The notes beneath the pieces were generated by a model, which had not been told where the DNA came from, did no database searches, and was given only the letters and a program-made list of their open reading frames with translations. Below, one piece after another: positions 2,044 through 54,666 of a DNA stretch of 64,000 nucleotides. Positions within the stretch are counted from its first letter, which is position 1. Each line of letters begins with the position of its first letter. Source of the DNA: a virus (lineage: Duplodnaviria; Caudoviricetes); IMG/VR virus record IMGVR_UViG_3300017691_000006, positions 12,751 through 76,750 of that record; one strand, written 5' to 3'. The position numbers and the translations under genes were made by a program.

Positions 2044-3231
2044 TTACGCGTGGAAGATCGGCAGGATGCCCAGCTGGAGAGCCGAGTTGGTCTTGCGCTG
2101 CCACACGCCGCGAACGTTCGCGATGTTGGCGTCGACCATGTTCACGGCCTTGCGGAGCGTGCCGGCGTCCATGACCGAGGCGTAGTCCGCGTCGGACGGG
2201 AAAGCCTCTTCCGGGCCAGCCCAGGTGTAGCCAGCCGGGTGAGCCACGTAGCCCCAGCGATGCCAGATCTCGGCGACGCCGGTACCCTTGTACGACGCCT
2301 CACGGTTGTCCACGCCGACCGGGTTCGGGATCGCCAGCTGCTCCATGGCGATCGCGCCGGGGAGGATGACGTACGAGACGTACTGGCCGACGAGGTCGAC
2401 GCCGGCGCCAACGTTGATCTTGGTGATCTCCGCCGGGCTGAGGTCCATGCTCGTGCGGGTCATGAGCAAGCGGAACTTGCCCTGGAAGATCGTGGTGAAC
2501 TCGATGTTGCCGTCCACGACCTTGTCCTGGTCGACGAGGTTCGCCGAGCGCAGCGACGCCATGACCGCGGGGTCGATGACGAGGTACAGGTACTCGGGCT
2601 CGTAGTCCTTCCAGGCCATGCCGACTGCCTTCAGGAAGGCCTCCGCGCGCTGTGCGCCCTGCGAAGTGGTCGTGGGAGCGCCGACCATCTGGGCAGCACC
2701 CAGGTCGACGTAGAAGCCGTAGCGGCGGTCGGTCGGGTCGTTGTAGAAGGTCTGACCGCCCAGGCCGGTCTGGCCCGAGCCGGTGGCGGTACCGTTGAGC
2801 AGCTCCGAGATGGCGACGCCCTTGAGGATCGAGCGGACGGCCGAGTCCTCGTCGAGGGCGCGGTGCTCACCGAACGACTTGCCCATCTGGACGAGGTCGT
2901 CGGTCTTCGTGATCAGCTCGGTCAGGTTGCGCTTCTTCGCGCCCCAGGTGCGGACCGTCTTGATGTACTGCGAGTAGTCGCTGGAGAAGTCGTTGTACGC
3001 GCCGTCCGAGGCGTCGGTGATCGACGCGACGTTGATGACGGGGTTCATCGGCTTGAACCAGCGCATCTGACCGACGAACGTCTCCGTGTTCTTGTCGATC
3101 ATGGGGTTGCCGCCCACGATCGCCGTGGTCGACAGTCGCTTGGCGTTGGTGTACGCCTCATCGCTGTACGCGGTGAGGGTCTCCTGCAGGACGAAGTTCG
3201 TCGCGCCTGCCGGGATTACGGGTGCGGGCAT
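2044..3231 (-). CDS. major capsid protein
   Basis: 395 aa, strongly biased codon usage, follows scaffold gene, precedes neck genes. Confidence 0.8.
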   Translation of the reverse strand: MPAPVIPAGATNFVLQETLTAYSDEAYTNAKRLSTTAIVGGNPMIDKNTETFVGQMRWFKPMNPVINVASITDASDGAYNDFSSDYSQYIKTVRTWGAKKRNLTELITKTDDLVQMGKSFGEHRALDEDSAVRSILKGVAISELLNGTATGSGQTGLGGQTFYNDPTDRRYGFYVDLGAAQMVGAPTTTSQGAQRAEAFLKAVGMAWKDYEPEYLYLVIDPAVMASLRSANLVDQDKVVDGNIEFTTIFQGKFRLLMTRTSMDLSPAEITKINVGAGVDLVGQYVSYVILPGAIAMEQLAIPNPVGVDNREASYKGTGVAEIWHRWGYVAHPAGYTWAGPEEAFPSDADYASVMDAGTLRKAVNMVDANIANVRGVWQRKTNSALQLGILPIFHA

Positions 3232-3246
3232 TCAGTTGTCCTTGTG

Positions 3247-3939
3247 TTATCCGCGCGCGGGCTTGCCGGCGAGGATGTTGCGCATGACCTCGGAAGGGTC
3301 GACGTCGAAGATTGACTTGGGCTTCTGCTGGGTACCCGGTGCCGGGTTCAGCGGGGCGTCTCCGCCCGTGCCGGTGGAACGCTTCGGCTTGAGGAGGAAC
3401 TGGTTGTCCGCGTCCTCGAAGAACGCCTTGGCGTGGTCGGCGATGCTCTTACCCTCGCGGGATACCCAGACACCGTTGGCGTCCTTGACCAGGTCAGTGG
3501 TGATGTCCTTGACGGCCATCGCGCGTGCCTTGGCGTTCCGGAACTCGTAGGTCGCGAGCGCGTCGCTCACGTCACGGTCACGGGTCAGGCCCACGTTCGC
3601 CTTGGTAAGCTCCTTCATCTGATTCTGGAGGTCCTCCAGCTCTCGTGCGTGAGCTTCCTTTTCCTGTCCTGCGTCGCGGAGACGCGCGGTCTCTCGGTCT
3701 CGCTCCAGCTTCTCCAGCTCCTTCGTGCGGGCCTCGGCCGCGTCCTTCGCCTCGTAGGCGGAGTTCAGACGCGCCTTGATCGGAGCCAACGCTGCGGCGA
3801 CTGCCTTCTCGATGTCGGTGCGGTTGTCTTCCGCCGGCTCGATCGGGGTGCCGTCCTCGTTCTTCGTGGGGTCGAAGTCCGGGTTGTCGATCATCTGGCC
3901 CTCGTTGTCGGGGTCCGGAATCTGCTTGGGGTTCGGCAT
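3247..3939 (-). CDS. capsid scaffolding protein
   Basis: Acidic Pro-rich N-terminus, long coiled coil, Gly/Thr C-terminal STGTGG; probable ATG at 3939 after AGAGGA (ORF track starts at 4047). Confidence 0.7.
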   Translation of the reverse strand: MPNPKQIPDPDNEGQMIDNPDFDPTKNEDGTPIEPAEDNRTDIEKAVAAALAPIKARLNSAYEAKDAAEARTKELEKLERDRETARLRDAGQEKEAHARELEDLQNQMKELTKANVGLTRDRDVSDALATYEFRNAKARAMAVKDITTDLVKDANGVWVSREGKSIADHAKAFFEDADNQFLLKPKRSTGTGGDAPLNPAPGTQQKPKSIFDVDPSEVMRNILAGKPARG

Positions 3940-4051
3940 TGTTGGTATCTTCCTCTGAGCACAGCTCAATTGCGGCAGGGGCCACAGACCTCTACCAAAT
4001 GGAATGTCGGTGTGGGCCGCTGGGAGTACAACTCCTTTACAGCCCATACCT

Positions 4052-4071
4052 GGGTTAATTCAACGGGTTGG
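4052..4071 (-). promoter_or_regulatory. class A conserved motif, copy 1 (CCAACCCGTTGAATTAACCC)
   Basis: 20-bp motif repeated 6 times with one variable base; here immediately after the MuF-RNAP stop and upstream of scaffold/capsid. Confidence 0.8.
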
Positions 4072-4073
4072 CG

Positions 4074-7000
4074 TCAACCTACCCCGTACCATCCGTAATT
4101 CTGCTCGAAGTCGTAAGGGACCTCCTCCCTCACGTCGTCTTGCGTCAGGATGTCGTCCTCCGTCATCACCTTGCCGCCGACCACGGACCTGCCCGCAACG
4201 GGTATCAGGCCAGTGTCGATAGCTTCATCTAAGTACCTCTGGTATATCTCCTCGGGCAGTCCGCGACCCTTCATCTCGTCCAGGGTCATCTTTACCACGT
4301 TCTTGTCCAGCGTCTCTGCGTAAATCTCTCGGAGAGCCGAGCGACCGGGCAGCAGGTCGGCGATGTTGGTGAAGAACGCGTCGTGGATGGTGCTCGTGGC
4401 TACGCCCACGCGCTTGCCCCACTGGTGGAACTTCTTCACGATCACGGCGTCGTTGGAGTGGTTACCGTTCACGGCGAAGGCGGTGCGTGCCTTCGTGGGG
4501 TCGGCGATGTCGTTGATGGTACCAGCCTTGTTAAGGGTCTGGTCCCACCAGCTGGCCTCGGACTTCTGCGGGATCATCAGGATGTTGGTGACCCAGTTAC
4601 CCTCCTTGTCCTTGTAGACCAGTCTCTCCTCGAACGTCTGGGTGAAGTTCTGCTCGATCACCTTGCCGTCGAAGTTGACCCACGGGGCTCGAGTCCAGCT
4701 GCCCGGGACGGCGTTCTTGTCCTTGTACAGCACGTTGACCTCGGTCGCCTTCGTCAGGTCCTTGAGGGCCGTGATGCCGGTGTACTTCTCCAAGATGTCC
4801 GGGGCGTACCCCAGGTCCAGCTTGAAGAGCCGCTTACCCACGGTCCTGGTCTCGGGAGCCTGGGTGCCGTGCAGCAGCGTGTACAGCCCGGAGTCGGGCT
4901 TCCAGTCGTAGAAGTACTTCTCCAGCAGCTGCTCGGTCAGCGGGGTGCGCGCTGGCAGCCCCAGCATCTTGGACACGGCTGGAGGCAGGGTGTAACCCTT
5001 CTTGTAGTCACCTCGCAGGGCGAAGGAGGCCACGGACTTCCAGTCCAGCTCCGCGTTCGACGGCTTGGCGTTCCCGAGGAACTCGCCGGCCAGTCGCCCG
5101 AAGAAGCGGGTGAAGTCCTTGAGGATGGGGACCTGCTCCGCCAGGTGCTCGCTCATGATCTTGGCGATGCCCTGGAAGTCGGCGGGGGTCACGATCCGCT
5201 CGTACTGCTGGCTCAGCTTGTCCACGAGGTCGCGGGTGGCCGGGTCCAGGAAGTACAGCTGCTCCATGATCTCGTCGCCGGGGTCCTGCCCCTTGTTGAA
5301 GATGTCGCGCACGTTGGCACGCAGACCTCGGAGCTTCTCAGCACCGTCCGCGTCGTAGCGCTCCACCCTGGCGATGCGGGCGTCTATCTCGTTGAGCACC
5401 TTCTGCCGGTCGGAGGCGGTGACCACCAGCGTTCCGGAGTCCTTGCCCAGCACCTTGCCGAGCTTGCCCTCTACGTTGAGGATGCCCGTCTTCTCGCCCG
5501 CGCCGTAGAACGTGACCATGTTCTGTGCCTTAGCGGCCTTCTGCAGGTCCTTGAGCTTGAGGCCCAGCTTCTCGTTCAGCACCTTGAAGCGAGGGTCGTT
5601 GTAGGTGGCTGCCGCGATCTCGTCGTACAGGCGTCGCTTCTGCGTCGTCGGCACCACGTTGGACAGCGAGGCCAGCTGCTTGTTCCTCGTCGTGAGGGCG
5701 ATGATCTGTGCCCCCGAGGACGAGGCGTCCTGCTCCATGGCTAGCGCGGTCATGTAGTCGTCCAGCTTGTACAGGTTCGACTTCTCGAAGTTGCCGCGCA
5801 GGTGCTTGTTGAGCTTGGCCATCTCGATGGCGAACCGGAAGAACTTGCCCAGCTCCTCGCCGTCCACCTCGGCCACCACCGGGCTCTCCAGCACGAAGCG
5901 GAGGTCCGACGGCTTGGAGGAGATCATGGCCTCGCCTATCTCCACCAGCTCCGCCCTCCAGGCCTCGGCGATCCGCTGGCGACCCACGAAGGTGAGGCCG
6001 TCGTGGCGTCCCTCGAAGTAGTCGCTGAGGCCACCGAGGAAGGAGCCGATCTGGTCGGTGAGGGCGTAGTAGCCGTCCACCCCCAGGGGCTTCTCCACCG
6101 AGGTGTTGAGGAACGGGCGGAAGCTCTCGCCCGACTGCGGGCTGATGAGGCCACGGTCGTAGACGCGGGCGCGGTGGTCGATGAACGGGTGGTTGCTGAA
6201 CGCGACCTCCCTGCCCCTCAGCCACTGCATGGACTTGAACCGCTCGTAGGCGTCGCCGCGCGACGTGATGTACTTGCGGTAGTGGTTGAGCTCGTCGTAC
6301 TTCTTCGCGCTACCGCGGTCGTCGCGGAAGTACAGCAGCTTCTCGATGAAGTCGTAGAAGTCGGGGTCGATCTTGTACTGGGTCTGAGCGGCCCAGTTGA
6401 GCGCGTCCGACAGGCTCTTGTCCACGAACTCGACGGGGAAGTCGGAGAACGAGGAGGTCGAGGTGATCGGGATGCGGGTGTCGTAGTAGCCCAGCCCCTT
6501 CTTCACGAAGTAGGTCTTGTACCCCTCGCGCACCAGCAGCCGGTTGGACTCGTCGGTGACGGCCACGCGCAGCCCGAGCTCGATCTTGCGGTTGAGCTTG
6601 GAGTACTCTAGGATACGCGGGTCCACGACCTTGATGTAGTACGACAGCGTGTCGTAGTACGGGCCGAAGTAGGCTCCCGAGAGACGAGAGCGCATCCGTC
6701 GCTTCTGGACGGCGAACGCGTCGATCTCGAACAGGTGGCCGGCGTTCTTCTCCAGCAGCTTGAGCCCCAGGTTGTACCACTCCTTCCGCGTGCCGTTCAT
6801 GTTGGCGGCGTTGAAGAGGTCGCGACCCAGGGAGACGGCGACGCTGTCCCGGTCGGGGCTGTCTGCCATGCCCAGCCGCTGGGCGAACCGCTGGTAGAAC
6901 TCGCTGATCTGCTGCTCGGTCAGTCGGCTCCTGATCTTCTTGGGGATGTTCAGGTCGAGGATGTCACGGAGCTCGTTGGCGAGCTTGGGTGCCATGCTGT

Positions 7001-8744
7001 CGTCCCAGAGGTTCTTCCTCACGATGTTCGGGATGAAGTCTCGGGCCAGCTCGTCCAGCTGCGTCTCGCCCAGCACGGGGTCCACGTAGGCGTCCTTGGT
7101 CAGCTTGCGCAGCACGTCCTTGTCCTTGCGCAGCTGCGTCTCGATCGCGTCCGAGATGTTCATCACGTCGAACTTGATCTGGCTGTTCAGGACCGCCTTG
7201 AGGTTGCCCCAGGGCTCGCCGTTCCTGCGGAAGCGACCGATAGTGACGCGGAGGTTCTCGACCACCACGGCTCGCTCGTTCATGCCCATCTTTAGGGCCA
7301 GCGAGTCGTCCAGCTGGTTGATGAACTCCTTGTCCTGCTTGAGCAGGTCCGTGCTCTCGTCCACGCGCCTGAGGGCGCCCATGTAGACGTCCTGGTTGGG
7401 CTGGTAGACGCGCACGTCGTCGTAGCGCTGCGTCAGCGGGTTGTAGCGACGCTGGTCCTCGGTCGGAGGGGTCGTCAGCACCCGGTTGCGGGTGTTGCGC
7501 TTGTTGTGCAGCAGCGTGCCACGGTAAGAGGTGATGGACAGGTTGCCGTTCAGGTCGCCCGCCTGCAGGAGGTAGTAGTCCTGGAGCGTCTTCTGCATCC
7601 GGTACAGGTCCTCCGGCATGGAGGCTCCCAGCTGCATCGCGTCGAGGCGGGCCTTGGCGTTGGCGAACTTGCGGGTGTCGCCGGGGATGACGTAGTCGCT
7701 GTCGGTGAGCTGCCTGAGCTCCTTGATGCCGAGCGAGTTGCCCTCCGGGTTCGTGAACTTGTCTACGGTGAGCTCGCCCGAGTTGAGCATGCCCACCTGC
7801 TTGTAGTCGCCTAGGTGCCTGAGCTGAACGTCCAGCGGCTGTCGGAGCAGCCAGTCGTTGTAGCTCTCCCTGAGAGGGGTCTGCCCGTCGTAGAACGCCT
7901 TCTGGGCGTCCGTCAGGCCGTTGAGGTTGCGCCGACGCACCTCGCCGAGGCCCTCCAGCTTGCCGACGTCCTCCCAGCTCTTGAACACCGGGACAGTAGT
8001 GCTCCGGCAGTTCCAGTGAGCCGGAGGTAGGTGAGAGACATCACCGACAGGGTATATCTGACCGTCTCGGTGGGCGCAGATAGGGGTGGTACGGGAGTCG
8101 AGCACAGCCACGTACTGGTAGCCATCGATAGCCTTCGCGTTGGCCTCGTACACGGCGTGGTCTGCCTGCGCGTGCACCGAGGTGACGGCGGTCACGACCA
8201 AGGCCCTGGACTGCAGGCGCGTGATCTTGTTGACGTTGTTGCGGCGCAGGTCCAGCGCCATCTGCTCTACCGTGTCGCCGCGAGCGATGCCTGCCCGGAT
8301 GAGCAGGTCGATACGCTTGCGCTCGTTGGCGGAAACGTTCGACCACCCCGAAGCCAGGGTGGTCTCTCCGTAGAGCGGTCGCTCCAGCACGATCTCCTCC
8401 GCCACGCGGCGTACGGGTCGCTGGGTGCGCCATATCTTGCCCATCGTGTTCTCGACGGACTGGTAGGCGAAGGAGAGCTGGTCGGACACGAGGTCCAGCA
8501 GCGAGCGGCGCGACAGGGAGAAAGTCTCCTCGTGCGTGCGCATCAGCTCCTGGTCCACGGCCTCCCGCAAGCGCAGGAGACCCTTGGTGGAGGTCTCCGC
8601 GCCCCGGACCAGCTCGTCCAGCCGCTCCTCGTGGCCGTCAAGCACCAGGCTCACCTTGCCGTTCACACGCCGCTCGTACAGCCGTACCATGGCCGCGCGG
8701 TCGACGATCTTGTCGTAAAGTTGAGTGTTGGCGTTGTCGGCCAT
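4074..8744 (-). CDS. MuF/SPP1-gp7-like head morphogenesis domain fused to a T7-like single-subunit RNA polymerase (putative virion RNAP)
   Basis: MuF signature GYQYVAVLDSRTTPIC...PPAHWNCRST near aa 205-250; RNAP motifs IDHRARVY, EQDASSSGAQ (A), KAQNMVTFYG (B), HSNDA and TIHDAF (C); lies between portal and scaffold. Confidence 0.9.
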   Translation of the reverse strand: MADNANTQLYDKIVDRAAMVRLYERRVNGKVSLVLDGHEERLDELVRGAETSTKGLLRLREAVDQELMRTHEETFSLSRRSLLDLVSDQLSFAYQSVENTMGKIWRTQRPVRRVAEEIVLERPLYGETTLASGWSNVSANERKRIDLLIRAGIARGDTVEQMALDLRRNNVNKITRLQSRALVVTAVTSVHAQADHAVYEANAKAIDGYQYVAVLDSRTTPICAHRDGQIYPVGDVSHLPPAHWNCRSTTVPVFKSWEDVGKLEGLGEVRRRNLNGLTDAQKAFYDGQTPLRESYNDWLLRQPLDVQLRHLGDYKQVGMLNSGELTVDKFTNPEGNSLGIKELRQLTDSDYVIPGDTRKFANAKARLDAMQLGASMPEDLYRMQKTLQDYYLLQAGDLNGNLSITSYRGTLLHNKRNTRNRVLTTPPTEDQRRYNPLTQRYDDVRVYQPNQDVYMGALRRVDESTDLLKQDKEFINQLDDSLALKMGMNERAVVVENLRVTIGRFRRNGEPWGNLKAVLNSQIKFDVMNISDAIETQLRKDKDVLRKLTKDAYVDPVLGETQLDELARDFIPNIVRKNLWDDSMAPKLANELRDILDLNIPKKIRSRLTEQQISEFYQRFAQRLGMADSPDRDSVAVSLGRDLFNAANMNGTRKEWYNLGLKLLEKNAGHLFEIDAFAVQKRRMRSRLSGAYFGPYYDTLSYYIKVVDPRILEYSKLNRKIELGLRVAVTDESNRLLVREGYKTYFVKKGLGYYDTRIPITSTSSFSDFPVEFVDKSLSDALNWAAQTQYKIDPDFYDFIEKLLYFRDDRGSAKKYDELNHYRKYITSRGDAYERFKSMQWLRGREVAFSNHPFIDHRARVYDRGLISPQSGESFRPFLNTSVEKPLGVDGYYALTDQIGSFLGGLSDYFEGRHDGLTFVGRQRIAEAWRAELVEIGEAMISSKPSDLRFVLESPVVAEVDGEELGKFFRFAIEMAKLNKHLRGNFEKSNLYKLDDYMTALAMEQDASSSGAQIIALTTRNKQLASLSNVVPTTQKRRLYDEIAAATYNDPRFKVLNEKLGLKLKDLQKAAKAQNMVTFYGAGEKTGILNVEGKLGKVLGKDSGTLVVTASDRQKVLNEIDARIARVERYDADGAEKLRGLRANVRDIFNKGQDPGDEIMEQLYFLDPATRDLVDKLSQQYERIVTPADFQGIAKIMSEHLAEQVPILKDFTRFFGRLAGEFLGNAKPSNAELDWKSVASFALRGDYKKGYTLPPAVSKMLGLPARTPLTEQLLEKYFYDWKPDSGLYTLLHGTQAPETRTVGKRLFKLDLGYAPDILEKYTGITALKDLTKATEVNVLYKDKNAVPGSWTRAPWVNFDGKVIEQNFTQTFEERLVYKDKEGNWVTNILMIPQKSEASWWDQTLNKAGTINDIADPTKARTAFAVNGNHSNDAVIVKKFHQWGKRVGVATSTIHDAFFTNIADLLPGRSALREIYAETLDKNVVKMTLDEMKGRGLPEEIYQRYLDEAIDTGLIPVAGRSVVGGKVMTEDDILTQDDVREEVPYDFEQNYGWYGVG

Positions 8745-33966: not shown

Positions 33967-34670
33967 AGGAAGATGTCCTTGGCACTTACCTTGGCAGACA
34001 CAGGTTGCTTCTGAGCGACCGGCTCGGGCTGCCGTACCGGCTCCTTCGGGGTGAAGAAGCTCATGTCCAGGTCGCTGTAGTCGACGGTGGCCGCCACCGC
34101 CTTCTTGACCTCCTTGTACGCGATCACCCAGTCGGGCTGCGCGCGGTTGGTCCAGTTGTTGCCGTTGATCTTCTCGGCCAGGTAGTAGGCCCGGTACGCC
34201 TGCATCGTGTTCTCCCGGTCCATCGGGTCACGCTTGTAGACGTCCGGCACGCATGCTTTCGGCGTCGTGTGGTTGAGGATGACGAACTTGCTCAACCAGT
34301 ACTTCATGGCGGGCACGATCACTCGCGCTCGCTCGAACTTGTCCGGGTTGCCTGGGTAGCGATAGTCGTACTCGTTGACCATCGCTCGGAGGTGGTCCAC
34401 CAGCCAGCTCACGTTCCCGAGGCCCTCGTTCAGCCAGAGGGCGGCGGGGTGGTTGGCGTGGGACAGCCCCGTCCAGGGCACGTCCGGAGCCTTGTCGGGC
34501 ACCAGGTCGGTCTCCACGAACTGGTGCGTCTCGTCGTCGTGCGGGCCGGTGTATCGGCTGGCCCACACGGACAGCAGCTGGCACGATTCGGATATCATTT
34601 TGATGATATGCCGGTCATGCAGCGCGATAGCTGCTTTTGCAGGGTCTTTATCGACGTAGAATATATTCAC
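33963..34670 (-). CDS. pyrimidine-dimer DNA glycosylase-like protein (DenV-related)
   Basis: MNIF.VD.DP..AA..L.D.H..KM..E..QLLS and H.NHP...W signature. Confidence 0.8.
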   Translation of the reverse strand: MNIFYVDKDPAKAAIALHDRHIIKMISESCQLLSVWASRYTGPHDDETHQFVETDLVPDKAPDVPWTGLSHANHPAALWLNEGLGNVSWLVDHLRAMVNEYDYRYPGNPDKFERARVIVPAMKYWLSKFVILNHTTPKACVPDVYKRDPMDRENTMQAYRAYYLAEKINGNNWTNRAQPDWVIAYKEVKKAVAATVDYSDLDMSFFTPKEPVRQPEPVAQKQPVSAKVSAKDIFL

Positions 34671-35173
34671 AGGCCAAGTAGCTCCATCTGGCTGGCTTTG
34701 GCTTTACTGTAAGCTGCCTCAGCCTCCTCGGGCGTGTTGAAGTGCCCGAGATTCTTCTTTTGGAAAGTTGCGCGCCACTTGGCTGTAGAGGGTACGAAGG
34801 ACACACCTAGTATTCCGGTGAGACTGTCCTTGTGAGCAACCACGTTGAGCATGTTGCCAGCTCTCGTGACCAACCGCAGGTTCTCAATGCGGTTGTTGCT
34901 CTTGTTTTGATCTATATGATCTATGTCCATCCCTGCAGGGATAGGTCCGTTGTGCATTATCCAGACCAGCTGGTGCACTCTGAACTTCTTACCCAGCAGG
35001 GTGGTCTGTACGTAGCCTTGCCCGTCGTCGCTGCCTACCCGGCTACCAACCTTAACACGATTACTGGTAGACACGAGCCAGAACAGCTCTCCTTCCTTGT
35101 ACTCAAAGAAGTAGGCTAGGTCCTCAGGGCTGAACTGCACCCTGGGGCGGCACGTGGTTGTTGTGGTATTCAC
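34667..35173 (-). mobile_element. free-standing HNH homing endonuclease with C-terminal AP2-like DNA-binding region
   Basis: HQLVWIMHNG...DIDHIDQNKSNNRIENLRLVT; KWRATF..LGHFNT.EEA..AY; codon usage visibly less GC-biased than neighbours. Confidence 0.88.
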
Positions 35174-39166: not shown

Positions 39167-40150
39167 TTATTCGAATACCTTGTCGATGAGTTGTGCAACG
39201 TAGGTGGCGTCCGGCGTGCCCTTGTGCTTGGACAGCTCGGACAGGAGCTGGGACATGTAGGCCTGGTCGACCCCGATCAGCTGCTCTCGCAGCACGAGCG
39301 GGTCCTTGAGGTCGATGGCGTTGAGCTGCCAGATGATCTTGAGCATCTGACCTGCTGTGATCCGCCAGCCGCGAGCGATGAACTTGCGGGTGCGGAACAG
39401 GGAAGCGATGGGGTACAGCGAGCCCTTGTACACGAGCGTCTTCGAGAGCAAGGCCTCCATGGCCTCCTCGCTGATCGACACCTTACCCGTGGCGTGGTCG
39501 TAGTAGCCCATCGCGTGGGCGAAGTCGTAGTTGCGGTGCAGCTCGGCCGGCTCGCCGTAGAACCGGATGATAAGCTGCACGCGGTCGGAGAGGGTCACGG
39601 CGTTCTCGGACATGAACACCGGGCGGTACTTGCCCTTCTTCTTGACCTCCTCCACCGCTGCCTCCGCGAGGTCGCCCTTGTCGAGGACCTCCTCGGGCAG
39701 GACACCGAACACGCCGTCGATGAACTCAGCGGACGCTTCCGGCGGCTGGCTCTCGAAATAGGTGTAGTCTGGCGTGTCGTTGTTCTCGCCGGCGACGCCA
39801 GCGGACTGCATCCAGATGACGATCCTGGGCTCTTCCTCGCCTAGGATATTGGTGCGTACAATCTCCTTAACTGTCGGAGAATAGCCTCGTACCTTTGTTC
39901 GACAGTCGGATACCTCGTTGAACTTACGTACGTAGTAATGAGCAACTGCGAGTGTTGTGTCCTTAGTACGAAAATAAACATCGTAGTCGTTGACCTCCTC
40001 TCCCAACATCATGGAGGCTACGCAACCGCCCGTAACGATGATGTCGCGAGCCATCGCCTCGCGGACCGCTTGGTCGTCGATAGTCTCCAGGAGGCTGTTG
40101 ATTTTCTTTTTGATGACGGCAGCGATGGTGCTCCGCTTCATTCCAGCCAT
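39167..40150 (-). CDS. Pol-beta-superfamily nucleotidyltransferase (CCA/poly(A)-polymerase-like head)
   Basis: IVTGGCVASMMLGEEVNDYDVYF (hG[GS]...DxD) and YDFAHAM downstream. Confidence 0.7.
   Translation of the reverse strand: MAGMKRSTIAAVIKKKINSLLETIDDQAVREAMARDIIVTGGCVASMMLGEEVNDYDVYFRTKDTTLAVAHYYVRKFNEVSDCRTKVRGYSPTVKEIVRTNILGEEEPRIVIWMQSAGVAGENNDTPDYTYFESQPPEASAEFIDGVFGVLPEEVLDKGDLAEAAVEEVKKKGKYRPVFMSENAVTLSDRVQLIIRFYGEPAELHRNYDFAHAMGYYDHATGKVSISEEAMEALLSKTLVYKGSLYPIASLFRTRKFIARGWRITAGQMLKIIWQLNAIDLKDPLVLREQLIGVDQAYMSQLLSELSKHKGTPDATYVAQLIDKVFE
39841..39981 (-). CDS. candidate overprinted 46-aa ORF inside the nucleotidyltransferase gene (+1 frame)
   Basis: ATG 12 nt after AGGAGG; ORF limits match an AT-rich codon patch in the host gene. 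Confidence 0.4.
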   Translation of the reverse strand: MFIFVLRTQHSQLLITTYVSSTRYPTVEQRYEAILRQLRRLYAPIS

Positions 40151-52278: not shown

Positions 52279-54519
52279 TTAGACGAAACAGTAGTCGGAG
52301 TCCTTCACCAGCGTGATGTCGAGCGTGCCGAACTCGACCTGGCTGATGTCGCCCATGATGTCTTCCATGATGTTGCCGAGCGGGTCGGCGTCGTACAGCT
52401 CCACGAACGTGTCGCGGATCAGCTGGAAGAGCTCGGGCATGTCGGCCAGCAGGCAGCCGAACGAGTCGTGGATGGTAGTGATCGGGAAGTCTGCCTTGGC
52501 CACCGTGATGGTCAGGTGGGCGGCGTCGAGCGAGTGGATGGCGTTCGGCGAGGCGCCGGACACCTGCTTGCCCTTCGACGGCACCTGGTTCTCGATGAAG
52601 CAGATGGCGATCTGGTACGTGTTCGCGTAGTAGCCGGTGGACAGACGCTCGCCGACCGGCGGGCCGTACTGCACCCAGATCTTGCGCGACACGCCCTCGG
52701 TGTAGTACTGGACGACGGGGAAGTCGGTGACCGGCACGGTCCACGACAGGAACTCCCCGGCCTCCTCCGCCTCCCTGCCCGCGTTCTCGAACACGGACAG
52801 CAGCTGCATCGGGCGGCGGAGGCTGACCCGGCAGTCGTCGAACACGACGCGGCCTAGGTAAGAGCCCCACTTGTGCTCCATGAACAGGAGCTTGTCGATG
52901 CCGTGCTTCTTGGAGTCGTCGATCTGCTGCTGGCCCAGGCCGTACGGGGTGCCGCCGTAGGGCAGGGTCATGACGTTGCGCTTGACGATCTTGCGCCGCT
53001 CCTTGGCGTCCGTGACGGACAGCCAGTAGACGGGACTGGACAGGTCGCCGATGCGCTTGTGCATGTCCTTGTAGGCCCGGACCTCGTCGATGAGCATGCT
53101 GCGCTGCACGCTCTTCGGCTCGAGGTTCTGGATGGTCTTCTTGTACTGCACCAGCGTGTCGATGTAGGACACGCAGGCCTTGTAGTCCTCCGGCAAGTAC
53201 GCGGCGACCTCCAGCTGCAGCCGCTCCCACACGTGGTCGGCGACGTACTTGTAGAGGTCACCGGGCAGCTCGCTCGGCACCAGGTTGACGTGCGGCGCCG
53301 TCTCCTCGTCCCTGGTGAGCGCCGAGAGGTGCTGGCTGCCGTTGTTGGAGCCGTCGATGTACACCTCCAGCGAGGACTCGTAGTCGTAGTTCTCGTAGTC
53401 GCCGCCCTGCTGGGTCTGCCAGATACGGAGCTTCATCAGCTCGGTGCAGGCGGCAAGGAACTGCCAGGGCTTGTCGGCCTTCATCCAGCCCTGGTTCACG
53501 CGTGGCTGCTCGGCGTACGAGAGCAGGATGTCCTCGTGCTCCTTACACCACGCGTACCGATCCTTCAGAGGGATCTTGTCGGTCTTTGCCTTGTCTGGTC
53601 GACCAGCATCTCCTGCCCAATTCGAAGCAATGGAGACAAGGAGCCAGAAGAAACCAGGCTCGCCAATCCGCTTGCGATCTGCTCGGAGGAGAAGTCCCCT
53701 TGCCAGATCACTACCTTGCTCGTGGAGGTAGGCGGTGGTGGGGTACTTGCGCCCACGGAAGTCGAAGTAATAGAGATGGTAAAATCGTCGGCCAAGGAAC
53801 CGGCCAGCGATATCTCCAATCGCCTTCGCTTCTCTGAGCTTGGTGGCTCGGGCGTCTTTGCTAGACTGCTCCCAGATATCGCTGAAAGCATCTGTCTTGT
53901 TGCCCAGCGCCCAACGGTACGTTTGATAGATGTCTTGATTGACATTCCAACCAACCTCCTGTGCTTTGTTGAGACAAGCGAACAGCATCGGGTGCGTCTC
54001 GAGCGTGATCTTGTCGAGGACGTCCCTGCTGCCCGTCTTAACCATCGGCATCCCCGTGGCGTGCCTGGAGGTGGTCCAGGGCTCGTACGGGGTCACCGAC
54101 GGCAGCTTCTCGTTGGTCGAGGAGGTCACGGAGGACCACAGACCGACGATGCCGTCGTCGTCCACGAGTCGGACGATGTAGGCGGCGTGGCTCTTGTTGC
54201 CCTGACCGAGTATCACCTCGATCATCTGCAGCTTCTGGAAGGACCACAGCAGGAACGCGCCGGTCTTGGCGGCCAGGCTGGAGTCCCGCTTCTGCTTGAG
54301 CTTGGAGCGCACCGAGTGGCCCAGAGCAGCCACCATCTCCGAGAAGTAGATGGCGGTGCTGCCGAAGCCCTTCTTGACACGCGTGTACATGTACACGACC
54401 GAGATCACGGTGTCAAGGTATTCTTCCACTTGGAACTGCTTGAGGTACTTGAGCGGGTTGCGCGGCGAGACCTCAACCTCGAGCCGCTCCTCAATGCTCT
54501 TCTTCAGCTCAGCGCGCAT
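52279..54519 (-). CDS. T7-like single-subunit DNA-dependent RNA polymerase (746 aa)
   Basis: YYFDFRGRKY, KPWQFLA, IDGSNNGSQH (A), RKIVKRNVMTLPYG (B), PNAIHSLDAAHL and TIHDSF (C). Confidence 0.96.
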   Translation of the reverse strand: MRAELKKSIEERLEVEVSPRNPLKYLKQFQVEEYLDTVISVVYMYTRVKKGFGSTAIYFSEMVAALGHSVRSKLKQKRDSSLAAKTGAFLLWSFQKLQMIEVILGQGNKSHAAYIVRLVDDDGIVGLWSSVTSSTNEKLPSVTPYEPWTTSRHATGMPMVKTGSRDVLDKITLETHPMLFACLNKAQEVGWNVNQDIYQTYRWALGNKTDAFSDIWEQSSKDARATKLREAKAIGDIAGRFLGRRFYHLYYFDFRGRKYPTTAYLHEQGSDLARGLLLRADRKRIGEPGFFWLLVSIASNWAGDAGRPDKAKTDKIPLKDRYAWCKEHEDILLSYAEQPRVNQGWMKADKPWQFLAACTELMKLRIWQTQQGGDYENYDYESSLEVYIDGSNNGSQHLSALTRDEETAPHVNLVPSELPGDLYKYVADHVWERLQLEVAAYLPEDYKACVSYIDTLVQYKKTIQNLEPKSVQRSMLIDEVRAYKDMHKRIGDLSSPVYWLSVTDAKERRKIVKRNVMTLPYGGTPYGLGQQQIDDSKKHGIDKLLFMEHKWGSYLGRVVFDDCRVSLRRPMQLLSVFENAGREAEEAGEFLSWTVPVTDFPVVQYYTEGVSRKIWVQYGPPVGERLSTGYYANTYQIAICFIENQVPSKGKQVSGASPNAIHSLDAAHLTITVAKADFPITTIHDSFGCLLADMPELFQLIRDTFVELYDADPLGNIMEDIMGDISQVEFGTLDITLVKDSDYCFV
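53565..53945 (-). CDS. candidate overprinted 126-aa ORF inside the RNAP gene (+1 frame)
   Basis: ATG 9 nt after AGGAGG; stop-free for 126 codons; coincides with a sharp loss of GC3 bias in the RNAP frame. Confidence 0.55.
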   Translation of the reverse strand: MSIKTSIKRTVGRWATRQMLSAISGSSLAKTPEPPSSEKRRRLEISLAGSLADDFTISITSTSVGASTPPPPTSTSKVVIWQGDFSSEQIASGLASLVSSGSLSPLLRIGQEMLVDQTRQRPTRSL

Positions 54520-54666
54520 TCACTTCCTTTGGAGTAGGGACAGGACGGCTACGAGCGCGACGACGGAGCCGACGACTGCGGCAAGTTTCAGTGCCAGGGC
54601 GAACAGGATGATGAACACGAAGCCCTTGGCCAAGACATTACCGTTAGTCGACGAACTCTTTCTCAC
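54520..54666 (-). CDS. 48-aa membrane micropeptide (MRKSSSTNGNVLAKGFVF...)
   Basis: GTG after GAGGAG; stop abuts the RNAP ATG. Confidence 0.55.
   Translation of the reverse strand: MRKSSSTNGNVLAKGFVFIILFALALKLAAVVGSVVALVAVLSLLQRK

What the first reader, a model, noticed from the sequence alone, without database searches (positions are those of the whole stretch)
53565..53945. Probable overprinted gene hidden inside the T7-like RNAP gene
Seen: between about 53560 and 53960 the RNAP frame abruptly loses its C/G third-position bias (e.g. GAT ATC GCT ... CGA CGA TTT TAC CAT). Over this interval the +1 frame is open for 126 codons (MSIKTSIKRTVGRWATRQML...RQRPTRSL), starting at an ATG 9 nt after AGGAGG. 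In GC-rich genes the +1 frame is usually closed often by CTG-A/GTG-A/ATG-A. Its second codon positions are the RNAP third positions, which would explain the bias. It spans the conserved YYFDFRGRKY motif. Inference: a de novo overprinted protein co-expressed with the RNAP, perhaps a regulator or host-takeover factor.
Basis: partly seen in the sequence, partly recalled or inferred. Interest (0 to 1): 0.75.

Follow-up and report, generated by a model that had tools for sequence, protein, structure and literature searches.

The report
Foreign-looking patch at empty intron site
A 435-base stretch of this phage's RNA polymerase gene has lost the genome's extreme G/C codon bias. It is centred on a spot where related phages carry a mobile self-splicing intron, so it is more likely a recombination scar than a hidden second gene, although that second gene is not ruled out.

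Summary
In the 746-aa T7-like RNAP gene (52279-54519, minus strand), third-position G+C is 0.96 everywhere except codons 181-325 (53545-53979), where it is 0.59. The +1 ORF, its ATG and the AGGAGG are as described.

- **Openness in this genome is not unusual.** 0.5 stops are expected there, and the same gene has other +1 runs of 154 and 113 codons.
- **The patch is centred on an intron site.** Six relatives carry a group I intron with an HNH homing endonuclease between codons 248 and 249.
- **Close relatives are mosaic at this spot.**
- **The nearest GC-rich relative has neither patch nor ORF.**
- **Tests for a conserved overlapping protein fail.** There is no synonymous-site constraint, no confident fold, and no relatives away from this locus.
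The +1 frame is stop-free in 14 of 67 distinct relatives, against 2 expected. Local third-position composition is buffered in those relatives.

Best reading: a gene-conversion tract around a homing site, with an incidental ORF (about 0.5). A real overprinted gene stands at about 0.3. No donor sequence was found, and expression could not be tested.

The parts
52279..54519 (-). T7-like single-subunit RNA polymerase gene, 746 aa
   Evidence: ORF and translation. PF00940 and more than 600 homologues at 60-75% identity. 35% identity to the RNAP of roseophage DSS3_VP1.
53545..53979 (-). Low-GC3 patch, codons 181-325: GC3 0.59 against 0.96 in the rest of the gene
   Evidence: Sliding GC3 and change-point fit, 2*dlnL = 120. 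The patch is absent in the nearest GC-rich relative L074, where GC3 is 0.99.
53565..53945 (-). +1-frame ORF, 126 codons from the ATG (TTG alternative at 53954); stop at 53565-53567
   Evidence: No Pfam match. AlphaFold2 mean pLDDT 44.5. A profile of the +1 products finds only same-locus gene calls.
53955..53960 (-). AGGAGG, 9 nt upstream of the +1 ATG; formed by RNAP codons CAG GAG G (Gln-Glu)
   Evidence: The same hexamer is present in L074, which has no ORF. The hexamer occurs 70 times on this strand of the window.
53775..53776 (-). Empty homing site: the junction CAT|CTC between codons 248 and 249. Six relatives carry a group I intron with an HNH endonuclease here. It lies 204 nt from one patch edge and 231 nt from the other.
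   Evidence: Split tblastn matches. RF00028 hits in L038 and L041. The intron ORFs carry NUMOD4 + HNH_3 + HTH. Splice junctions ...CAT|TAA... and ...G|CTN TAY TAY. Arm lengths.
53743..53772 (-). Conserved RNAP motif YYFDFRGRKY, aa 250-259, directly 3' of the empty intron site
53722..53769 (-). Island of native-like codons (codons 251-266; 15 of 16 end in G or C) inside the patch
   Evidence: Third-position string.

Best explanation
The patch is most likely a gene-conversion tract. About 200 bp on each side of a group I intron homing site in the RNAP gene were copied from a related phage with a much weaker G/C codon bias (third-position G+C about 0.5-0.6). This could have happened during intron homing followed by intron loss, or when a break made by a homing endonuclease was repaired from a co-infecting relative. 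The tract is recent enough not to have drifted back to this genome's GC3 of 0.96. On this reading the +1 ORF is a by-product. The +1 frame of this part of the gene has few stops anyway, and the T-ending codons brought in by the patch create the only possible start codons. Shown here: the patch, the intron and endonuclease at its centre in relatives, mosaicism at the same place in relatives, and the lack of constraint on the +1 product. Inferred: that the patch was imported, and that a homing endonuclease caused it.
For: (1) The patch midpoint (codon 253) is within 5 codons of the intron insertion site at 248|249. The arms are 204 and 231 nt. (2) That site holds a group I intron (RF00028, 62-72 bits) with a NUMOD4-HNH-HTH endonuclease ORF in L038 and L041. 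Homologous 743-811 bp insertions with the same splice junctions sit there in L050, L057, L138 and L145, and L050 has the same endonuclease ORF. (3) The same stretch is mosaic in relatives. L052 and L140 are nearly identical except for 20 differences in codons 184-303. L081/L114 and L037/L114 are 90-100% identical at third positions around codons 240-280 but about 60% identical elsewhere. Block boundaries fall at codons 173-184 in four close pairs. Synonymous divergence in the patch is significantly higher than the flanks in some pairs and significantly lower in others. (4) The nearest GC-rich relative, L074 (75% aa identity), has GC3 0.99 in the region. WIN-L074 synonymous difference is 0.57 in the patch against 0.26 in the flanks, P = 5e-8. 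(5) A known mobile gene in this genome, the free-standing HNH_3+AP2 endonuclease at 34667-35173, has GC3 0.66 among neighbours at 0.86-0.94. Low GC3 therefore marks acquired DNA here. (6) The three strongest internal low-GC3 patches of the window all lie on the most conserved motif of their protein. Conserved motifs are where homing elements insert and where foreign segments are tolerated (PMC2814812 for insertion sites). (7) Co-conversion of exon flanks and localized marker exclusion by phage homing endonucleases are established (PMC2988022). (8) Third positions of the patch carry no site-specific conservation among ORF-bearing relatives, so constraint by a shared +1 protein cannot hold GC3 at 0.59.
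Against: No donor was found. The best match to residues 186-320 among 5.8 billion proteins is 81% identical, and L074 is still among the top three. In a tree of the patch alone, the window's RNAP (WIN) stays in its own clade; its nearest rows are L156 (a 44% G+C contig, 70% aa identity to the window's RNAP) and L074. First- and second-position G+C and the Lys/Arg ratio of the patch are not shifted towards AT (z = +1.9 and -1.4), which fits only a mid-GC donor. Codons 251-266, right beside the presumed break site, have native-like GC3. A single simple tract does not predict this. The excess of stop-free +1 frames in relatives (14 against 2 expected) is not explained by this model, because the third-position shift in those relatives is T to C, which does not remove stops.
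Confidence: 0.5

Rival explanations
1. A real overprinted gene. The +1 ORF (126 aa here, 105-156 codons in relatives) is translated from the RNAP mRNA. It yields a disordered, Ser/Thr/Pro-rich accessory protein that evolves quickly. Its coding needs hold the RNAP third positions away from the genome's G/C bias.
For: The +1 frame is stop-free in 14 of 67 distinct relatives (11 of 50 full-length ones) against 1.2-2 expected. The null model is calibrated on ten other windows of the gene, where total counts and dispersion fit. Zero-stop windows occur only here. In AT-rich relatives this is the longest +1 run of the gene: 132-156 codons against 35-77 in the others. These include L156 and L157 (a 41% G+C contig, 71% aa identity) in the window's own clade. 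Patch GC3 is buffered in ORF-bearing relatives, slope 0.35 against 1.09. Their third-position composition (A .28, C .24, G .17, T .31) resembles second codon positions of proteins (my own knowledge of typical values). The shift begins near codon 190 and reaches further in lineages whose ORF ends at 341-346. An ATG lies 0-4 codons after the upstream stop in 15 of 19 lineages. In the window, the ORF stop at codon 318 lies inside the support interval for the patch edge. A second low-GC3 patch, in the nucleotidyltransferase gene, also matches a +1 ORF end to end.
Against: There is no synonymous-site constraint between clades or within them, which means the +1 product changes at about the neutral rate. 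The runs of identity seen in close ORF-bearing pairs extend far beyond the ORF (codons 174-405 and 70-403), so they are recombination blocks. The nearest relative lacks the ORF, and sister lineages differ: L006 is open while L013 and L082 are broken. The start position varies and a Shine-Dalgarno sequence is seen only where Gln-Glu codons supply it. The same lineages also have few +1 stops in codons 517-680, where a conserved stop rules out a single ORF. AlphaFold2 gives pLDDT 44.5 and pTM 0.16. There is no Pfam match. Only 3 of 1.84 billion representative proteins match; the two whose contigs were read (P0163, P0165) are gene calls at this same locus. The ORF would overlap the most conserved segment of the N-terminal half of the enzyme, an unlikely place for a new gene to arise. 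The nucleotidyltransferase ORF is closed in 23 of 24 relatives.
Confidence: 0.3
2. Local selection on the RNAP message itself, with no second product and no import. For example, slower codons or weaker mRNA structure across the segment that encodes the conserved motif, to help co-translational folding or to regulate translation.
For: All three internal low-GC3 patches lie on conserved protein motifs. The amino-acid-level tree of the patch shows no change of affiliation.
Against: L074 and L097, GC-rich relatives with the same motif, show no drop: GC3 is 0.99 and 0.97. The effect goes in opposite directions in AT-rich and GC-rich relatives. The motif codons themselves (251-266) are the GC3-rich island, not the low point.
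Confidence: 0.1
3. Assembly artefact. The metagenomic contig switches for about 435 bases to a co-occurring related phage of lower G+C.
For: The record is a single metagenome-assembled contig, and its RNAP protein is seen on one contig only. The patch lies in the most conserved part of the gene, where shared words are most likely.
Against: It would need two switches 435 bases apart between sequences that would be only about 75-80% identical. The reading frame and all conserved residues are intact. Two further short patches in other genes would each need the same accident. Reads could not be examined.
Confidence: 0.05

Closest known systems
Co-conversion of exon flanks and localized marker exclusion by phage homing endonucleases (T4 td/I-TevI, SegF/SegG; SPO1/SP82 I-HmuI/II)
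   Same: A short tract centred on a homing site inside a conserved motif of an essential phage gene. The site is occupied by a group I intron with an HNH endonuclease in relatives. The tract is a few hundred bp on each side. Independent mosaic events occur at the same place in related phages (PMC2988022).
   Different: The window carries no intron, no donor allele is known, and cleavage was not tested. The tract is recognised only by its codon composition, and a native-like island lies next to the site.
Overprinted or nested phage genes (Rz1 inside Rz; T7 genes 4.1/4.2 inside gene 4 and 19.2/19.3 inside gene 19 - from my own knowledge)
   Same: An ATG-initiated ORF in the +1 frame, wholly inside a larger gene. 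It is preceded by a Shine-Dalgarno-like hexamer and is kept open in a subset of relatives more often than chance.
   Different: No synonymous-site constraint in the host frame, no conserved start, and no detectable fold, signal peptide or lipobox-like feature. The nearest relative lacks it.
Intron-encoded HNH endonuclease in an RNAP gene used in competition between phages (PhiPA3 gp210, PMC11620839)
   Same: A homing endonuclease carried by an intron in a phage RNA polymerase gene, in a family of co-circulating related phages.
   Different: That case concerns a multisubunit jumbo-phage RNAP. Here the gene is a T7-like single-subunit RNAP, and the window has only the empty site.

Membership tests
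Homing-associated gene-conversion (co-conversion) tract | The tract spans a real homing site, that is, a site occupied by an intron and endonuclease in other alleles | tested here: met
   Six relatives carry an insertion at codon 248|249. RF00028 reaches its gathering score in L038 and L041. The intron ORFs carry NUMOD4+HNH_3+HTH.
Homing-associated gene-conversion (co-conversion) tract | The tract extends on both sides of the site over tens to hundreds of bp | tested here: met
   Arms of 204 and 231 nt. However, codons 251-266 next to the site look native.
Homing-associated gene-conversion (co-conversion) tract | The tract derives from another allele, shown by an identified donor or a clear change of phylogenetic affiliation | tested here: not met
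   The best match to the patch is 81% aa identity, and the patch tree keeps the window in its own clade. Only the synonymous-site contrast with L074 supports import: 0.57 against 0.26.
Homing-associated gene-conversion (co-conversion) tract | Recurrent independent exchanges at the same place in related genomes | tested here: met
   L052/L140 differ almost only in codons 184-303. L081/L114 and L037/L114 show near-identity peaks at codons 240-280. Block boundaries fall at codons 173-184.
Homing-associated gene-conversion (co-conversion) tract | The endonuclease cuts or nicks the intron-less allele at or near the site | not testable with these tools
   Needs an in vitro cleavage assay.
Overprinted (overlapping) protein-coding gene | The alternative frame is open for longer than chance in the focal genome | tested here: not met
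   P = 0.58 with flank codon usage and 0.07 with usage matched to the patch GC3. Other +1 runs of 154 and 113 codons exist in the same gene.
Overprinted (overlapping) protein-coding gene | The ORF is preserved in homologues | tested here: inconclusive
   Stop-free in 14 of 67 relatives against about 2 expected, including L156 and L157. It is interrupted in the nearest relative L074 and in most others, and its distribution on the tree is patchy.
Overprinted (overlapping) protein-coding gene | Reduced synonymous variation in the host frame across the overlap | tested here: not met
   0.574 against 0.584. Corrected excess identity 0.025 against 0.023. Close ORF-bearing pairs 0.35 against 0.32 and 0.34 against 0.39. 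Identity blocks exceed the ORF.
Overprinted (overlapping) protein-coding gene | Conserved start codon and ribosome-binding site | tested here: not met
   The start falls at codon 189, 192, 193, 197, 209 or later depending on lineage. It arises from AAT-G or GAT-G codon pairs of the RNAP. AGGAGG occurs only in GC-rich sequences, including L074, which has no ORF.
Overprinted (overlapping) protein-coding gene | Evidence of translation | not testable with these tools
There is no cultured phage.
T7-like single-subunit RNA polymerase (PF00940) | Full-length match to the family with the conserved motifs intact | tested here: met
   PF00940 is precomputed for P0001 and all homologues. 2,706 phage records match. 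The motifs DFRGR and TLPYGG are present.

The most novel reading that the evidence does not exclude
A real second gene is written in the +1 frame across the catalytic-motif region of a phage single-subunit RNA polymerase gene. It is present in roughly a fifth of a large uncultured phage family. It is kept open and compositionally protein-like but has no site-by-site conservation, as expected for a fast-evolving disordered accessory factor. It may spread between phages with the conversion tracts of the intron homing site that lies inside it.
Probability: 0.3. Interest if true: 0.75.

Novelty: new member of a known kind. Interest (0 to 1): 0.45.

Why it matters
If the main reading holds, the patch is a visible scar of homing-endonuclease traffic at a site that is now empty. 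Composition alone could then reveal past exchange between phages of very different G+C content. The work also shows that single-subunit RNAP genes of this uncultured family carry group I introns at three sites. A limited literature search found no report of this. If the rival reading holds, an essential and highly conserved enzyme gene would hide a second, fast-evolving protein. That would matter for phage annotation and for the search for early host-takeover or anti-defence factors. The case is also a caution for overlapping-gene detection. In a genome with extreme GC3, any imported patch creates start codons in the +1 frame and so imitates a nested gene.

Tried and rejected
- **Donor search.** A search restricted to residues 186-320 against 5.8 billion proteins found nothing above 81% identity.
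- **Tree of the patch alone.** It has too few columns and shows no change of affiliation.
- **Amino-acid-level G+C and Lys/Arg ratio as a donor signature.** Not discriminating, because the family varies too little.
- **Synonymous depletion in close ORF-bearing pairs.** L099/L100 and L039/L042 at first looked like constraint (0/121 changes in the patch). The identical blocks run over codons 174-405 and 70-403, so they are recombination blocks.
- **Fusion or coupling of the exon +1 frame with the intron's endonuclease ORF.** The endonuclease ORFs of L038, L041 and L050 are in the +1 frame (coordinates). The frames are separated by stops and by 60 to over 200 nt.
- **Antisense and +2 frames as the true ORF.** All are closed in ORF-bearing relatives.
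- **The second low-GC3 patch (nucleotidyltransferase) as an independent test.** No insertions in 24 relatives, and the +1 frame is open in one only.
- **Group I introns in the window.** None found.
- **Structure prediction of the +1 product.** No confident fold, so no fold search was made.
- **Earlier findings of this scan, searched by words.** Nothing found.
Full report
**What is there.** The window is part of a 76.75-kb viral contig, estimated 97% complete. The gene at 52279-54519 (minus strand) encodes a 746-aa T7-like single-subunit RNA polymerase (PF00940). It has several hundred metagenomic homologues at 60-75% identity. The nearest isolates are roseophages DSS3_VP1 and DSS3_PM1 at 35%. 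Below, WIN means the window's RNAP gene. L074 is the nearest relative (75% aa identity, 65% G+C). L156 and L157 are AT-rich relatives at 70-71% aa identity. "ORF-bearing" means a relative whose +1 frame is open across the patch.

The gene's third-position G+C is 0.93-1.0 in 40-codon windows, except between codons ~185 and ~320, where it is 0.47-0.65. A two-breakpoint likelihood fit puts the segment at codons 181-325 (window 53545-53979). GC3 there is 0.59 against 0.96 outside, with 2*dlnL = 120.

**Is the open frame unusual in this genome?** No.
- The +1 frame of this gene has other open runs of 154 and 113 codons.
- Re-drawing synonymous codons with the gene's own usage gives 0.52 expected stops in the patch, so P(none) = 0.58. 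With usage taken from sequences of similar patch GC3, P = 0.07.
- The start-codon coincidence is nearly forced. ATG, GTG and TTG in the +1 frame all need T at an RNAP third position. T is 3% of third positions outside the patch and 26% inside it.
- The AGGAGG comes from Gln-Glu codons. L074 has the same hexamer without an ORF.

**What relatives show about the site.** 154 related loci were fetched. Many RNAP genes are interrupted at three places: after aa 248, after aa 390, and after aa ~514-521.
- Rfam finds group I introns above the gathering score at all three places.
- The introns at the first site encode 173-174-aa proteins with NUMOD4, HNH_3 and HTH domains.
- Their junctions are ...TAY CAT|TAA... 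and ...G|CTN TAY TAY....
- In the window the homologous junction is CAT|CTC, between 53776 and 53775. It lies 204 nt from one patch edge and 231 nt from the other.

The patch is therefore centred, within 5 codons, on an empty homing site.

**Mosaicism at the same place.**
- L074 has GC3 0.99 in the region and three +1 stops.
- WIN and L074 differ at 57% of synonymous third positions in the patch against 26% in the flanks, P = 5e-8.
- Among close pairs of other relatives, the patch is sometimes far more alike than the flanks: L081/L114 0.14 against 0.39, and L123/L132 0.28 against 0.53. Sometimes it is far less alike: L006/L083 0.62 against 0.39, and L028/L108 0.45 against 0.29.
- L052 and L140 are nearly identical except for 20 differences in codons 184-303. 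Four close pairs have block boundaries at codons 173-184.
- L081/L114 and L037/L114 reach 90-100% third-position identity around codons 240-280.

This is the pattern of repeated exchange of this segment. It matches what is established for homing endonucleases in phages: co-conversion of exon flanks and localized marker exclusion (PMC2988022).

The window's genome also carries a free-standing HNH_3+AP2 endonuclease at 34667-35173. Its GC3 is 0.66 among neighbours at 0.86-0.94. The other two strong internal low-GC3 patches lie on the DxD motif of a nucleotidyltransferase and on the conserved motif of a MuF-like protein.

**What relatives show about the ORF.**
- In 37-43% G+C relatives such as L004, L005, L006, L008 and L030, the longest +1 open run of the whole gene lies at codons 189/193/205 to 318-346. 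It is 132-156 codons long, against 35-77 in other relatives.
- L156 and L157, in the window's own clade, are open from codon 193/189 to 318.
- Among 67 sequences less than 90% identical in the patch, 14 have no +1 stop, against 1.96 expected. Among 50 full-length ones the figures are 11 against 1.21.
- The same null model fits total counts and dispersion in ten other windows. Zero-stop windows occur nowhere else.
- Patch GC3 is buffered in ORF-bearing relatives: slope 0.35 on flank GC3, against 1.09 with r = 0.99 in the others.
- The shift starts near codon 190 and reaches further where the ORF ends later.

**Tests for a conserved overlapping protein fail.**
- Third positions differ as much in the patch as in the flanks among ORF-bearing lineages, 0.574 against 0.584.
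- After correction for composition, the excess codon identity is 0.025 in the patch against 0.023 in the flanks.
- Moderately diverged ORF-bearing pairs give ratios near 1: L005/L081 0.35 against 0.32, and L083/L084 0.34 against 0.39.
- Two close pairs with no change in the patch have identity blocks running over codons 174-405 and 70-403, well beyond the ORF.
- ORF-bearing lineages are scattered over the tree, and sisters differ: L006 is open while L013 and L082 are broken.
- The start position varies.
- The same lineages also have few +1 stops, and a slight GC3 rise, in codons 517-680 next to the third intron site. A conserved stop there rules out one ORF.
- The product has no Pfam match and folds with mean pLDDT 44.5.
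- As a profile, it matches 3 of 1.84 billion representative proteins. Two were traced to their contigs. One lies in a contig whose RNAP frame carries an in-frame TAG. The other lies in exon 2 just downstream of an intron endonuclease.

One logical point carries weight. Selection only to keep the frame open cannot hold GC3 at 0.59 in a 0.96 genome, because G/C-ending codons give fewer +1 stops, not more. Only selection on the +1 amino-acid sequence could do that, and no sign of such selection is seen in any relative.

**Weighing the readings.**
- *Import of the tract by gene conversion around the homing site.* This explains the size, position, sharp edges and uniqueness of the patch. It fits the mosaicism seen in relatives. 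It lacks a donor: the best match is 81% over the patch, and the patch tree shows no change of affiliation. It does not explain the excess of open +1 frames or the GC3-rich island at codons 251-266. I put it at about 0.5.
- *A real overprinted gene.* This explains the open frames and the buffered composition. It fails the synonymous-constraint test and the conservation tests. I put it at about 0.3.
- *Selection on the message itself.* About 0.1.
- *A chimeric assembly.* About 0.05.

Expression could not be examined.

**Comparison with known systems.** The closest known phenomenon is exon co-conversion and marker exclusion by phage intron-encoded and free-standing homing endonucleases (T4 td, Seg and Mob enzymes; SPO1/SP82 I-HmuI/II; PMC2988022). 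An intron endonuclease in a jumbo-phage RNAP gene is known to act in competition between phages (PMC11620839). Membership is supported for site, size and recurrence. It is not supported for donor identity, and cleavage is untested. As an overlapping gene it resembles nested phage genes such as Rz1 or T7 4.1/4.2 (my own knowledge) only in layout.

**Verdict.** The compositional patch is real and striking. The overprinting interpretation is possible but is not the best-supported one. The more likely story, a conversion scar at an empty intron homing site, is a new instance of a known process.

Noticed in passing
L038:1908-2693, L041:1051-1861, L050:710-1497, L033:~3043-3719, L046:~3088-4143, L058:~526-1282 and ~1691-1931: RNAP genes of relatives carry group I introns (RF00028) at three sites: after aa 248, 390 and ~514-521. 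Some genes have two introns, and L046 has two RF00028 hits in one insertion. The introns at the first site encode NUMOD4-HNH-HTH endonucleases. A limited literature search found no report of introns in T7-like RNAP genes.
   Followed up: partly
window 34667-35173 (-): A free-standing HNH_3 + AP2-domain endonuclease, 168 aa, next to a pyrimidine-dimer glycosylase-like gene. Its GC3 is 0.66 against 0.86-0.94 in the neighbours, so it looks recently acquired. It is 46% identical over 68 aa to the intron endonuclease of L038.
   Followed up: partly
window 39833-39982 (-): A second low-GC3 patch (0.42 against 0.88, 2*dlnL 47-50) in the Pol-beta-type nucleotidyltransferase gene. It starts at the DYD catalytic motif and matches a 46-aa +1 ORF with AGGAGG 12 nt upstream. 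GC-rich relatives show no patch. The +1 frame is closed in 23 of 24 relatives, and no relative has an insertion.
   Followed up: partly
window 7994-8132 (-): A third low-GC3 patch (0.63 against 0.93) in the 1556-aa gene, over a MuF-like conserved motif (DSRTTPIC...HWNCRS). A +1 ATG lies two codons after the patch start.
   Followed up: no
window 53722-53769 (-): Inside the RNAP patch, the 16 codons just 3' of the empty intron site (YFDFRGRKYPTTAYLH) have G or C at 15 of 16 third positions. This is a native-like island that a single simple conversion tract does not predict.
   Followed up: no
L101 / L185:2-1984: One relative has an in-frame TAG in place of the conserved Trp near aa 191 of the RNAP. 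The gene caller therefore split the gene and called the +1 ORF as a 147-aa protein (P0163). This could be a broken gene, a sequencing error or recoding.
   Followed up: no
RNAP codons 517-680 (window ~52480-52970) and the same region in L006, L013, L048, L083, L156: A second stretch of the gene, just after the third intron site, has fewer +1 stops than expected in 8-9 of 49 relatives. These are largely the same lineages that are open in the patch, and they show a small GC3 rise there.
   Followed up: partly
window 52873-54537 (+): A 554-aa ORF antisense to the RNAP gene. This is the usual shadow frame of a sequence with very high GC3, not a gene.
   Followed up: no
whole window: The nearest cultured relatives by RNAP (35% identity) are DSS3_VP1 and DSS3_PM1, roseophages whose DNA has deoxyuridine in place of thymidine (PMC8323127). 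Whether this phage shares that trait was not examined.
   Followed up: no
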